Source: Octopus vulgaris
Taxonomy: Eukaryota
DNA length: 64,000 nucleotides
Assembly: GCA_951406725.2 (NCBI GenBank)
Contig: OX597830.1
Coordinates: 79,112,001-79,176,000 of the forward strand
Reading direction: 5' to 3'
In this document: piece after piece, positions 26,297-30,369 of the stretch
Numbering within the stretch: the first letter of the stretch is position 1
Layout: every line of letters begins with the position of its first letter
The notes under the pieces: generated by a model
The model's input: the letters and a program-made list of their open reading frames with translations, nothing else
What the model was told of the DNA's origin: nothing
The model's database searches: none
Translations under genes and position numbers: made by a program

Positions 26297-26735
26297 TTTT
26301 CCATTGTCTTGGCTTAACAACCCTCATCGTTTGTTTTTACTGTGTTATTCTCTTTGTTCTGTCTTTTATTGTTTTTACTTTTATTGTTTTTACTGTCTTG
26401 TTTTGTTCTTACTGTCCTGTTCTTGTTACCACTTTTACTCCTCCGCAAAAAATCCCAAATTTTATTGGACCGTTTCAACGAAGTCGCGTCTTGTCCTTAC
26501 CTTCGAAATGCGGAGTAGCCGAAACAGGGGCAACTGAAGAAGGGGAATATTCCTTGTGTTGTATATCTTGTACTCTGTTTTTTCGTTGTTTGAAAAAAAG
26601 TCTCTTCCATGTTTTTGGTTTTATGTTTTCGTTTCTCATTGTGTTCTACGTTTTTTTGTGTCCTGTACCCATATATGCATGTATATATACATATAGATGT
26701 AGGTATGTACATATATGTATGTATATATGCATATG
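26297..26735. repeat. Unclassified dispersed T-rich repeat
   Basis: Similar to 43240-43560 (same strand) and 3870-3970 (opposite strand). Confidence 0.55.
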
Positions 26736-26744
26736 TTTTATTTA

Positions 26745-26785
<41 letters not shown>

Positions 26786-26788
<3 letters not shown>

Positions 26789-27365
26789 TGGGGTTGGACA
26801 AAATAATGGAAACACCTTAAAATTTCAAACAAATTTATTTTAATATGGAGTAGGACTGCCTTTGGCAGTAATTGCAGCTTGAATTCTATGAAGTATGGAC
26901 TCATACAAAGTTTGAATTGTCTCCAAAGAAATTTTTGTCCCTTCTTCTGCTAAAACAGTCTCCAGTTCTTGTAAATGATGATGGTGAAGGATATTGACTC
27001 CTTACTTGTTTTTCTAAAATGCACCATAAATGTTCAACGATATTGAGATCAGGGGACTGTGGTTGCCAGATAAGATGTTCAACTTCACTAGAATGTTCCT
27101 CAACCCATTCAGTAACAACTTTAGCCATGTGAATTGGTGCATTATCATCGTGAAAGATTGCGTTTCCCTCCAGAAATAGTTCTGCAACCATAAAATGAAT
27201 TTGATCAGATAAAATGCTTAAATAGTCTTGACTATTAATTTTGCCATGAAAGGAAACCATTGGACCAGTGGATTTTCAAGATTGCCAGATCATCACAGAT
27301 CCTCCTCCATGTTTAACAGTAGGAAGAAAACTGTCTGGATCAAATGCTCCTTTTGGCTGTTTCCA
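26786..27365 (-). mobile_element. Tc1-like transposon 3' fragment (DD34E-type transposase)
   Basis: FHDDNAPIH...WQPQSPDLNIVEHLW; TIR TACTGGGGTTGGACAAAATAATGGAAACACC next to (TA)n. Confidence 0.9.
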
Positions 27366-27798
27366 CACATATATAGTAAAAAAGGAAAAAAAAAAACATA
27401 CTAAATCTACCAAAGTCAACATTGCCTTTCATCCATTCCAGCTTGATAAAATAAGTACCAGTTATTAAAAGGGATCAATGTAATCAACTTTCTTCCGCCC
27501 TGAAATTGCTGGCCTTGTACCAAAATTCAAAACCAATAATATTCTTGTCATATTAACCTTCTACCATGTCATCATGAGTCCTTTAATCTGAATGGCTTCC
27601 AGATTATAGGTAGCTTTTCAAAGATATATATATATAATAGTTATCGCCATACTAATATGGCATTCTTATAATAATAAGAATAAAGCTGTCCGCTTATTAG
27701 CTCCATGAGGCCATCGCCTTAAGTTAGCTATTTGATACACAAACTGTATCCATATAACCTTCGAACAAGGGAGGTCAGTCGCTCCACACTACTTGACC

Positions 27799-27849
27799 GA
27801 CAGCTACAGACGCGTTTCGGGGTATTGCCCTTTTCAATGTAGCATAGTC
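27799..27849 (-). ncRNA. Minimal type I hammerhead ribozyme, copy 1
   Basis: GCTACA-TTGAAAA-GGG caata CCCC-GAAA-CGCG-TC-TGTAGC (one G lost in stem II). Confidence 0.7.
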
Positions 27850-28159
27850 AGACCAGTAGGTGTCGCTTCTGACAATCTCTGTTCGAAGGTTTTATTTACC
27901 TAGTTTCGGTGGAATACATCCACTTGTTTTCAATAATAGAAATATTAAAATTACTAAGTCTCTCTAAAAGAGAACACGGCAGCGTTCCCGGAAAATAATA
28001 GTTATCGCCATACTAATATGGCATTCTTATAAAAATAAGAATAAAGCTGTCCGCTTATTAGCTCCATGAGGCCATCGCCTTAAGTTAGCTATTTGATACA
28101 CAAACTGTATCCATATAACCTTCGAACAAGGGAGGTCAGTCGCTCCACACTACTTGACC

Positions 28160-28211
28160 GACAGCTACAGACGCGTTTCGGGGTATTGCCCCTTTTCAAT
28201 GTAGCGTAGTC
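28160..28211 (-). ncRNA. Minimal type I hammerhead ribozyme, copy 2 (intact)
   Basis: GCTACA-TTGAAAA-GGGG caata CCCC-GAAA-CGCG-TC-TGTAGC; U3-A8 core, palindromic stem III, GUC site. Confidence 0.8.
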
Positions 28212-28420
28212 AGACCAGTAGGTCTTTATTCTTATTTTTATAAGAATGCCATATTAGTATGGCGATAACTATTATTTTCCGGGAACGCTGCCGTGTTCTC
28301 TTTTAGAGAGACTTAGTAATTTTAATATTTCTATTATTGAAAACAAGTGGATGTATTCCACCGAAACTAGGTAAATAAAACCTTCGAACAGAGATTGTCA
28401 GAAGTGACACCTACTGGTCT

Positions 28421-28472
28421 GACTACGCTACATTGAAAAGGGGCAATACCCCGAAACGTGTCTGTAGCTGTC
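28421..28472 (+). ncRNA. Minimal type I hammerhead ribozyme, copy 3
   Basis: As copy 2 but stem III CGTG. Confidence 0.7.
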
Positions 28473-28693
28473 GGTCAAGTAGTGTGGAGCGACTGACCTC
28501 CCTTGTTCGAAGGTTATATGGATACAGTTTGTGTATCAAATAGCTAACTTAAGGCGATGGCCTCATGGAGCTAATAAGCGGACAGCTTTATTCTTATTTT
28601 TATAAGAATGCCATATTAGTATGGCGATAACTATTATTTTCCGGGAACGCTGCCGTGTTCTCTTTTAGAGAGACTTAGTAATTTTAATATTTC

Positions 28694-28732
<39 letters not shown>

Positions 28733-28914
28733 ACGGGCTTCTTTCGGTTTCTGTCTACCAAATCCTCTCACAAGACTTTGGTCAGTCCAAAACTATATTA
28801 GAAGACACTTGCCTAAGGTGTCATGCAGTGAGAATGAACCTGGAACCATGTGGTTGGGAAGCAAGCTTCTTACCACACAGCCATGCTCGCGCCATATATA
28901 TACATATATATGCT

Positions 28915-28947
<33 letters not shown>

Positions 28948-28949
28948 GC

Positions 28950-28984
<35 letters not shown>

Positions 28985-28990
28985 CATATA

Positions 28991-30369
28991 TTCCACCTTT
29001 GTCGCTCCAGAGATTTGGCACCAATCTCAAATCATTCCAATACCCAAAAAAGGCGATTTGTCCCTCGTCACCAACTACAGGGGCATATCTCTAATGTCAA
29101 TTGCTGCAAAACTGTACAACAAACTGATCCTAAATCGTCTTGTCCTTTTTGTTGAACCTTTGCTCAGAAAGAACCAAAATGGATTCAGACATGGGCGCTC
29201 AACGCTGAGCCAGATACTATGCCTGCGCAGACTTATTGAAGAATCAAAAGCATTTAATCGCGATCTTGCAATGGTATTTGTAGACTTTTCTAAAGCGTTC
29301 GATTCTGTAGATAGGTACAAGATGTTTGAAATCCTTAAGCTCTATGGGATACCAGACAAAATTATTTCTGCCATCAAGGTCCTCTACACAGATACGTCTT
29401 CAACCATCTTAACCCCTGATGGAGAAACATCATCTTTCTCGATCGAGGCCGGAATACTGCAGGGAGACACACTCGCCCCATTTCTTTTCATCATTGTTGT
29501 TGATTATGTGCTACGTATGTCAGTTGATACCATCTCTGGCAAGGGCTTTGAAATAAAACCAAGAAGAAGTTCCAGACACCCAGCTGAGTACTTGACAGAC
29601 ACTGACTTTGCTGACGACATCGCTCTTATCAGTGATTCTCTCTCCAATGCCCAGTCTCTCTTACAATCTCTTGAACAAGCCTCAAATTGTGTAGGTCTTT
29701 ACCTCAATGAGACCAAAACTGAATACATAAACAAGTGCCTGTCCAACAGTGATTGCATCATCCACACTCTCAACAGTGCACCTTTAAATATGGTTTCTGA
29801 TTATAAATATCTTGGGTCATACATATCATCATCTGGAAAAGACTTTCTAACTAGAAAGGGTATGGTCTGGTCAGCCTGTAATGACATGCATAAGATCTGG
29901 TCATCAAATCTAAGTAGAGACTTCAAACTTGAAATATTCAAAGCCACAGTCGAACCAATCCTACTATATGGCTCAGAAACCTGGACGTTATCAAAGAAGC
30001 TTGAGAGGCGGTTGAATGGAACCTACACTCGCCTCCTTATGAGAGCTCAAAATCTCTCGTGGAGGCGCCATCCAACCAAAATGCAAATATATGGGAAATT
30101 ACCACATGTGTCATCTCTTGTGAAAGGTAGGAGAGTCCAGTTTGCTGGACATTGTTGTAGAGCTGAAAAAGAAGTAATTTCTACTCTTCTCCTCTGGAAG
30201 CCATCTACTCGCAACACCAGAGGGCGCACACTCTCCTACCCTGATGTAATCTCCAGGGATACAGGCATCCAGCAACAGGACCTCCGTAATGCTATGATGG
30301 ACCGTGAAGTCTGGCGCAACATGGTAAATTCCATTGTCTCGACCACGGTCGAACAATGATGATGATGAT
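28991..30369 (+). mobile_element. RTE-like LINE, 5'-truncated, uninterrupted RT-domain ORF (~455 aa) to stop at 30359
   Basis: PIPKKGD, NYRGISL, QNGFR, FVDFSKAFDSV, GILQGDTLAP, DFADDIAL, YKYLGS, LLYGSETWTL; (TGA)n tail; inserted in (TA)n. The N-terminus of the 516-aa track ORF is SINE/microsatellite. Confidence 0.95.

What the first reader, a model, noticed from the sequence alone, without database searches (positions are those of the whole stretch)
27634..28699. Retrozyme/Penelope-like 361-bp ribozyme unit in tandem-plus-inverted array: candidate self-cleaving circular RNA replicon
Seen: 1.6 copies of a 361-bp non-coding unit (27634-28223), then 1.3 inverted copies (28224-28699), giving ~413-bp palindrome arms, inserted in (TA)n. 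Each unit has a minimal type I hammerhead. On the minus strand two GUC sites (28170, 27809) are exactly 361 nt apart. The unit is structured: a 12-bp AACCTTCGAACA/TGTTCGAAGGTT stem encloses the ribozyme and there is a GCCATA-ctaa-TATGGC hairpin. Known: minimal hammerheads with palindromic stem III typify Penelope pLTRs and metazoan non-LTR retrozymes, which act as dimers and yield small circRNAs. Inference: a non-autonomous cephalopod retrozyme-like family copied from a circular or multimeric RNA template.
Basis: partly seen in the sequence, partly recalled or inferred. Interest (0 to 1): 0.85.

Follow-up and report, generated by a model that had tools for sequence, protein, structure and literature searches.

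The report
Ribozyme repeat spread by Penelope enzymes
This is one copy of a gene-less, roughly 360-base repeat found over a thousand times in the genome; each unit carries a predicted self-cutting hammerhead RNA, and the copies are likely pasted in by borrowed Penelope retroelement enzymes that would copy one RNA, possibly a circle, from both DNA strands at once.

Summary
In detail: 1.6 units head-to-head with 1.3 units, in (TA)n, with three type I hammerheads. Corrections: the core is the U3:A8 variant and the helix sizes are canonical, not minimal.

The unit is a genome-wide family (1,209 exact ribozyme 25-mers; at least four subfamilies, 75-99% alike). Its hammerhead stems covary and only core position 7 varies freely. 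No sampled copy (0 of 129, plus 0 of 30 older ones) joins a Penelope ORF.

Copies end at two fixed sites 62 nt apart. In 65 of 68 head-to-head insertions with both ends at such sites, each arm uses a different site. Two autonomous Penelope families here do the same (9 of 9, 6 of 6). Both arms share one haplotype (3% discordance versus 34% between loci).

Best reading: a non-autonomous retrozyme mobilised in trans by a Penelope RT/endonuclease priming one RNA from both target strands. A circular template is modestly favoured over an uncleaved multimer (about 55:35). Cleavage, circles and the partner enzyme are not shown, and nothing supports RNA-to-RNA replication. It is a new member of a known kind, with a clear mechanistic footprint.

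The parts
27634..28223 (-). Arm 1: 590 nt, 1.6 tandem units in ribozyme sense. Its 3' end (27634) is the inner end site, unit position 175 counted from the cleavage site.
28224..28699 (+). Arm 2: 476 nt, 1.3 units, head-to-head with arm 1. Its 3' end (28699) is the outer end site, unit position 237.
28638..28699 (+). 62-nt one-sided tail between the two end sites (inferred RT start sites)
   Evidence: tail = stretch between two RT start sites in PMC11167929
28164..28205 (-). Intact type I hammerhead, U3:A8 core, predicted cut after C28170
27803..27843 (-). Second hammerhead, stem II one base short, predicted cut after C27809
28427..28468 (+). Third hammerhead, stem III palindrome altered by one change, predicted cut after C28462
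27756..27891 (-). 12-bp stem (27756-27767 with 27880-27891) at the base of the long helix capped by the hammerhead; its 5' strand is the family's hotspot for 5' truncation
27646..27661 (-). 6-bp hairpin 12 nt before the inner end site; nearly invariant in three subfamilies, one compensatory pair in the oldest
28223..28224 (.). Inversion junction (unit position 309 meets 124), blunt
27624..27633 (.). (TA)n target, left side
28700..28730 (.). (TA)n target, right side

Best explanation
The locus is one insertion of an ORF-less, roughly 361-nt hammerhead repeat (a non-LTR retrozyme) that is likely pasted into (TA)n tracts in trans by the RT and GIY-YIG endonuclease of an autonomous Penelope-like element, which would nick both target strands and copy one RNA from two fixed internal start sites, one per strand. 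Steps: (1) Tandem copies would be transcribed (inferred). (2) Hammerheads would cut, probably as dimers through the palindromic stem III, and the monomer would be ligated to a circle (inferred from covariation and from mussel and axolotl retrozymes; not shown). (3) A Penelope protein, probably a dimer, nicks both strands of a (TA)n tract (target shown; enzyme inferred). (4) One strand primes at unit position 237, the other at 175 (the one-each rule is shown; priming is inferred from PMC11167929). (5) Each cDNA runs on past the ribozyme site, often beyond one unit (shown); most likely round a circle with strand displacement (about 0.55), otherwise along an uncleaved multimer (about 0.35). (6) The two cDNA ends join by short microhomology, giving head-to-head arms with a 62-nt tail on one side (pattern shown; repair step inferred).
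For: Family: 1,209 exact 25-mers over the ribozyme, reversed control 0; subfamilies about 97, 87, 84 and 75-80% alike. Ribozyme under selection: among 201 motifs with core letters left free, U3 200, U4 199, G5 201, A6 201, A8 201, A9 199, GAAA 194, while position 7 is A 120, C 42, U 37, G 2; the three commonest stem III middles (154, 28, 7) are all palindromic. On 23 copies, 98.5% of cells pair and 11 of 84 pairs change on both sides, 1 of 500 shuffles as high (related sequences, structure drawn from the same alignment). No ORF: 6 of 129 loci have a Penelope fragment nearby, none continuous with the unit; 0 of 30 older loci; 50 single-armed copies share no 5' flank. Two end sites: of 80 two-armed loci among 129, 68 have both ends at a canonical site and 65 of these use one of each (binomial p 2e-16 against 0.5); in the positional sample alone 30 of 31. 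Same rule in two autonomous Penelope families here: 9 of 9 pairs and 6 of 6 scoreable of 7. One template: discordance at 18 diagnostic sites is 36 of 1,524 within arms, 24 of 754 between opposite arms, 74,214 of 216,731 between loci. (TA)-rich 3' flank in 154 of 191 arms; 47 of 77 junctions overlap by 1-9 nt. For a circle: 29 of 30 positional arm pairs copy overlapping unit positions; 11 of 30 would need 3 or more linear units while 4 of 59 loci hold such an arm; unit-specific substitutions recur between loci no more than chance (28 versus 24, range 17-31) and no two loci share two. In vitro, an anole Penelope protein nicks and extends both strands and starts at two internal sites that bound the tail (PMC11167929).
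Against: No cleavage, circle, strand or transcript start was measured. The partner enzyme is not identified: the unit has no DNA similarity to the flanks of 20 GIY-YIG loci, 12 extended loci or 31 loci of the second family, apart from one neighbouring subfamily-B copy and matches of 37 nt or less. Its tail is 62 nt against about 35-40 nt in those families. The one-each rule also holds for 4-5-kb autonomous elements, so it does not by itself show a circle. 5' stops cluster at the 12-bp stem (35 of 191, p 6e-12), 23 of them after more than one unit; a circle already paired with cDNA should have lost that stem, which fits a folded linear multimer better. There is no significant excess of stops at the cut site (11 of 191, p 0.09). 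12 of 48 loci show some arm-to-arm discordance, mostly deletions and CpG changes, but L012 differs at 2 of 5 sites. The shares of arms crossing the cut site (154 of 191) or exceeding one unit (119 of 191) are inflated by how loci were picked. PMC11167929 found cleavage unnecessary for insertion, unprocessed RNA the main substrate, and no difference in start site between strands. Only 1 of 9 Xenopus retrozyme dimers cleaved in the 2026 preprint.
Confidence: 0.8

Rival explanations
1. Same family and same Penelope machinery, but the template is a linear, uncleaved multimeric transcript of a tandem array; the second strand primes at an upstream unit, and circles, if made, are by-products.
For: Stops at the 12-bp stem recur on second and later passes (23 of 35). 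Unprocessed RNA was the main substrate in vitro (PMC11167929). In the 781-aa family the inner-site arm is the shorter in most pairs and stays near pLTR length. Arrays of 5.5 and 7.6 units exist as possible donors.
Against: A multimer offers as many upstream 237 sites as 175 sites, yet same-site pairs are 3 of 68. Long donors are rare (4 of 59) while 11 of 30 insertions would need them. No donor-ordered mutations are shared between loci. In the 775-aa family both arms can hold the ORF end.
Confidence: 0.35
2. The inverted arm comes from fold-back or self-priming (cDNA or antisense template), not from a second target-primed start.
For: Proposed for rotifer Penelope elements from palindromes at junctions (PMC3846280, passages). 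It would also give one haplotype in both arms.
Against: Each arm ends at its own canonical site in (TA)n. The inner-site arm is longer than the outer-site arm in 37 of 62 loci, so it cannot be a mere copy of it. L100 has arms with no shared positions. The junction here is blunt and not palindromic.
Confidence: 0.1
3. The unit is just the pLTR of a rare autonomous Penelope element and all sampled copies are 5'-truncated.
For: Tail, inversion, (TA)n target and U3:A8 core are all Penelope traits; the 781-aa family has a U3:A8 hammerhead with the same stem III palindrome as subfamily B. Only about a tenth of the copies were inspected, with 1.5-4 kb flanks.
Against: 0 of 129 and 0 of 30 loci join an ORF. 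Units repeat seamlessly up to 7.6 times, and the roughly 360-nt period holds across subfamilies 25% apart. The hammerhead has canonical helix sizes, as in retrozymes.
Confidence: 0.08
4. An autonomously replicating circular RNA (viroid-like replicon) that sometimes integrates.
For: Highly self-paired RNA. At least 24 haplotypes among full units. RNA-to-RNA copying has been floated for retrozymes (PMC7229834).
Against: Hammerheads on one polarity only. Haplotypes are explained by successive retrotransposition. No data on minus-strand RNA.
Confidence: 0.04
5. The palindrome is an assembly or long-read fold-back artefact.
For: No laid contig was listed across this locus's own junction (the listing was cut).
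Against: The arms differ by private changes and by the 62-nt tail, and 80 of 129 loci show the same architecture with different junctions.
Confidence: 0.01

Closest known systems
Metazoan non-LTR retrozymes (mussel 350-390 bp, axolotl 330/350 bp, coral 225/245 bp; PMC7229834; read: parts 2-4 of 6)
   Same: ORF-less tandem unit of similar size, under 50% GC, one type I hammerhead per unit with canonical helix sizes and palindromic stem III, highly self-paired, thousands of dispersed copies, Penelope elements in the same genome.
   Different: U3:A8 core. Head-to-head arms with a one-sided tail and two fixed end sites are not described in the parts read. Cleavage and circles were shown there, not here.
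EN+ Penelope-like element insertions with pLTR, inverted 5'-truncated copy and one-sided tail (PMC8557442, PMC3846280: passages; PMC11167929: main text and methods)
   Same: Inverted copy at the 5' end, tail at one end only, two internal end sites, microsatellite target, microhomology junction, partial tandems.
   Different: No ORF; tail 62 nt rather than 30-40; the whole element is the repeat unit. The strict one-site-per-arm rule and shared haplotype are counted here; the papers say only that the tail is optional on one arm.
Non-autonomous Chlamys elements such as MRC1 (PMC8557442, passage)
   Same: Non-autonomous Penelope derivatives with multicopy head-to-tail insertions.
   Different: Most Chlamys lack canonical hammerheads and resemble their autonomous partner at the 3' end; no such likeness was found here.
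U3-A8 hammerheads of Schistosoma Cercyon Penelope elements (PMC4209133; read: parts 1-2 of 4)
   Same: Same core covariation.
   Different: Those are min-HHRs, mostly single; here the motif has canonical helices and sits in tandem units.

Membership tests
Non-LTR retrozyme | Short (150-450 bp) head-to-tail repeat without ORF, LTR, PBS or PPT | tested here: met
   361-362-nt seamless units, up to 7.6 copies; no attached ORF. PBS and PPT were not searched separately.
Non-LTR retrozyme | One type I hammerhead per unit | tested here: met
   core is the U3:A8 variant; no Rfam hit.
Non-LTR retrozyme | Conserved, highly self-paired RNA structure | tested here: met
   z -7.25; compensatory pairs.
Non-LTR retrozyme | Dispersed multicopy, non-autonomous mobility | tested here: met
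   1,209 exact motifs; unrelated flanks.
Non-LTR retrozyme | Self-cleavage of the transcript | not testable with these tools
   Needs in vitro transcription.
Non-LTR retrozyme | Expressed as linear and circular monomer RNA | tested here: inconclusive
   No RNA holder listed; only contigs of runs guessed to be RNA could be laid.
Autonomous EN+ Penelope-like element (unit as pLTR) | RT plus GIY-YIG ORF continuous with the repeat | tested here: not met
   0 of 129 and 0 of 30 loci; no hit in the window.
Penelope-mobilised insertion | Two end sites with a one-sided tail | tested here: met
   65 of 68.
Penelope-mobilised insertion | Inverted 5'-truncated copy joined head-to-head | tested here: met
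   80 of 129 loci.
Penelope-mobilised insertion | AT-rich or microsatellite target | tested here: met
   154 of 191 arm ends.
Penelope-mobilised insertion | Sequence kinship with the pLTR of a partner element | tested here: inconclusive
   Shared core variant with the 781-aa family only; no alignable DNA; other families not all examined.
Viroid-like circular RNA replicon | Ribozymes on both polarities or RNA-to-RNA replication | tested here: not met
   One polarity only; replication itself not testable.

The most novel reading that the evidence does not exclude
These insertions are fossil rolling-circle products: a Penelope RT dimer binds one 361-nt hammerhead circle, primes both nicked DNA strands at two different sites 62 nt apart, and chases round the circle by strand displacement. 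That would be direct genomic evidence that retrozyme circRNAs are the reverse-transcription template, and one rule (one start site per strand, one RNA) would explain the head-to-head arms and one-sided tail of Penelope elements in general.
Probability: 0.45. Interest if true: 0.75.

Novelty: new member of a known kind. Interest (0 to 1): 0.5.

Why it matters
Two published ideas lack direct evidence. One is that animal retrozymes are moved by Penelope enzymes, argued so far from co-occurrence and pLTR likeness (bioRxiv 10.64898/2026.07.22.740005, which leaves the mechanism open). [quoted passage not shown] This family carries the Penelope insertion signature with no ORF, is young, has over a thousand copies, and sits beside two Penelope families with intact ORFs. 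It is a ready test system: a 361-nt RNA, two predicted start sites, and two candidate enzymes. The strict one-site-per-arm rule also constrains how Penelope proteins finish integration, which the in vitro work left open. A natural U3:A8 hammerhead lineage kept through at least four subfamilies is a further, smaller point; standard descriptors would miss it.

Tried and rejected
Rfam scan of 26500-30000: no ribozyme hit, only microsatellite-driven miRNA matches.

Expression: no RNA holder listed. Contigs of three runs guessed to be RNA hold pieces of the unit, but contigs give no strand, ends or circularity and may hold DNA, so this is not used as evidence. The same call listed no contig across this locus's junction; its tables were cut.

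Partner search: no alignable DNA between the unit and 20 GIY-YIG loci, 12 extended loci or 31 loci of the 775-aa family, apart from a neighbouring subfamily-B copy. A third, divergent Penelope fragment (L120) was not followed up genome-wide.

I first read the one-each rule as proof of a monomer circle, and dropped that when both autonomous families showed the same rule.

Excess of 5' ends at the cut site as proof of cleavage in vivo: not significant (11 of 191).

Locus-private substitutions fixed in all units (11 in 6 of 74 loci) are weak support: 3 of the 4 seen on both strands come from L131, which looks like a later local duplication.

The 30 oldest-subfamily loci were left out of the one-each count because their query held both end types. 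Twelve overlapping duplicate loci were dropped before counting.

The flanking RT at 28992-30356 is not the partner: no match to either Penelope protein.

Literature: seven searches listed no paper on this family, on hammerhead repeats in octopus, or on twin priming in Penelope elements, judged from listings. The library lacks most subscription papers, Repbase and Dfam were not available, and supplements were not read, so a prior entry for this repeat is possible.

Full report
Observation. The described structure is in the sequence. Arm 1 (27634-28223) holds 1.6 units in ribozyme sense on the minus strand; arm 2 (28224-28699) holds 1.3 units on the plus strand; both outer ends run into (TA)n. 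A whole-window scan found three hammerheads, all in this element and all in the same unit polarity, with predicted cuts after 28170, 27809 and 28462. I number the unit from the base after the cut (u1-u361 = window 28169 to 27809). The monomer folds far better than shuffles (z -7.25).

The ribozyme. The core is UUGAAAA, so the C3:G8 pair is U3:A8, a variant reported for Schistosoma Penelope elements (PMC4209133, parts 1-2 read). Rfam gave no ribozyme hit. Helix I has 6 bp, helix II 4 bp, helix III 2 bp with a palindromic loop, which that paper calls canonical rather than minimal. In 201 motifs from the sampled loci, with core letters left free, six core positions were kept in 199-201 and GAAA in 194, while position 7, the free position of the hammerhead core (established knowledge), took all four bases. 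The three commonest stem III middles are all palindromes. On an alignment of 23 copies from three subfamilies, 11 of 84 pairs change on both sides, including stems I, II and the intermolecular stem III pair; these sequences are related and the structure came from the same alignment, so this is supportive, not a probability. Loop 2 and the bulge in helix I resemble the tertiary contact of canonical metazoan hammerheads; that likeness is recalled and untested. Cleavage was not measured.

The family. The genome holds 1,209 exact copies of a 25-mer over the ribozyme. Searches found subfamilies about 97, 87, 84 and 75-80% alike, all with a period near 360. I analysed 129 distinct loci: 40 best hits, 59 taken by position from the pattern list, 30 of subfamily B; twelve overlapping duplicates were dropped. 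Six have a Penelope protein fragment nearby and none is continuous with the unit; none of 30 oldest-subfamily loci has one; 50 single-armed copies share no 5' flank. So the unit is not an ordinary pLTR in this sample, which covers roughly a tenth of copies.

Insertion anatomy. Arm ends cluster at u175 and u237, and 154 of 191 such ends face (TA)-rich DNA. Of 80 two-armed loci, 68 have both ends at these sites and 65 use one of each; 12 have one end elsewhere; the positional sample alone gives 30 of 31. This window obeys the rule: u175 at 27634, u237 at 28699. Opposite arms share a haplotype: 24 of 754 comparisons differ at 18 diagnostic sites, against 74,214 of 216,731 between loci; 36 of 48 loci are fully concordant and most exceptions are deletions or CpG changes, with L012 a real exception. 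47 of 77 junctions overlap by 1-9 nt, a figure that alignment ends can inflate slightly.

The machinery. The genome has two young autonomous Penelope families with open 781-aa and 775-aa frames; the first has RT and GIY-YIG domains and a cysteine linker of the kind PMC8557442 ties to Neptune elements and microsatellite targets. Both end at two sites about 35-40 nt apart in (TA)n, and their head-to-head pairs use one each: 9 of 9 and 6 of 6 scoreable of 7. PMC11167929 (main text and methods read) showed that an anole Penelope protein nicks and extends both target strands and starts at two internal RNA sites that bound the tail. The unit thus bears the Penelope signature in trans. Which family moves it is open: the 781-aa family shares the U3:A8 core, but no DNA aligns.

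Mechanism. I infer that a Penelope protein primes one retrozyme RNA from both nicked strands, one at each site, and that the two cDNAs are joined head-to-head. Fold-back copying is unlikely, as the inner-site arm is the longer in 37 of 62 loci. Circle or linear multimer is unresolved. For a circle: arms overlap in unit position in 29 of 30 positional pairs; 11 of 30 would need three or more linear units while 4 of 59 loci offer that; unit-specific mutations show no donor order, 28 recurrences against 24 expected. For a multimer: 5' stops pile up at the 12-bp stem (35 of 191), 23 of them beyond the first unit; and unprocessed RNA was the main substrate in vitro. Stops at the cut site are not clearly enriched (11 of 191). 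I put the circle at about 0.55. Sequencing runs could not settle expression.

Comparison and novelty. It works like a metazoan non-LTR retrozyme (PMC7229834, parts 2-4 read) and meets every feature testable here; cleavage and circles are untested. A 2026 preprint (10.64898/2026.07.22.740005, parts 1-3 of 5 read) already derives animal retrozymes from Penelope elements. The inverted arm and one-sided tail are known (PMC8557442 and PMC3846280, passages). Unchecked notes from other genomes in this scan describe the same shape. What this case adds is an ORF-less family with the full signature, a counted one-site-per-arm rule in three families, and one haplotype per insertion. Seven literature searches listed nothing on this family; repeat libraries and supplements were not seen.

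Verdict. Real, a new member of a known kind, interest 0.5. The 'replicon' reading is unsupported. The rolling-circle reading has probability about 0.45 overall and would merit 0.75.

Noticed in passing
window 28337-28373 (+) and the matching stretch of each unit (u237-u273): A second hammerhead-like stretch (U3:A8-type core, hairpin, GAAA) starts exactly at the outer end site. Its stem I is poor and its GAAA is lost in subfamilies B and C, so it is likely a relic or chance.
   Followed up: partly
L051:906-4590, L054:768-4471: The 781-aa Penelope family has a second, upstream frame of 300-480 aa with no Pfam match, and a U3:A8 hammerhead with a weak A-U stem I.
   Followed up: partly
L058, L254-L283: A very young 775-aa Penelope family forms head-to-tail tandems 4,271 bp apart and head-to-head pairs in which both arms hold the ORF end. 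Its pLTR has a hammerhead-like motif with C at core position 4 and a palindromic stem III (motif read by eye).
   Followed up: partly
window 26901-27275 (-): DDE_3 transposase remnant of the Tc1/mariner kind just left of the insertion.
   Followed up: no
window 28992-30359 (+): 5'-truncated LINE-type reverse transcriptase with a 455-aa open frame; no match to the Penelope proteins.
   Followed up: partly
window 28731-28890: A very high-copy short repeat next to the right (TA)n; it recurs in many flanks and is far deeper than the unit in all four laid runs.
   Followed up: no
L096:548-2547, L154:4176-6914: Longest arrays seen, 5.5 and 7.6 units, each with variants fixed across its units; candidate donor loci.
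   Followed up: partly
L236:1168-1918: A copy that seems to mix subfamily C and subfamily B sequence in one arm; possible recombinant or template switch.
   Followed up: no
window 27634-28223 in public runs: Half or more of the sampled words occur in 11 runs under four coded organism labels, so the family is probably shared by related species; only two of those runs were laid.
   Followed up: no
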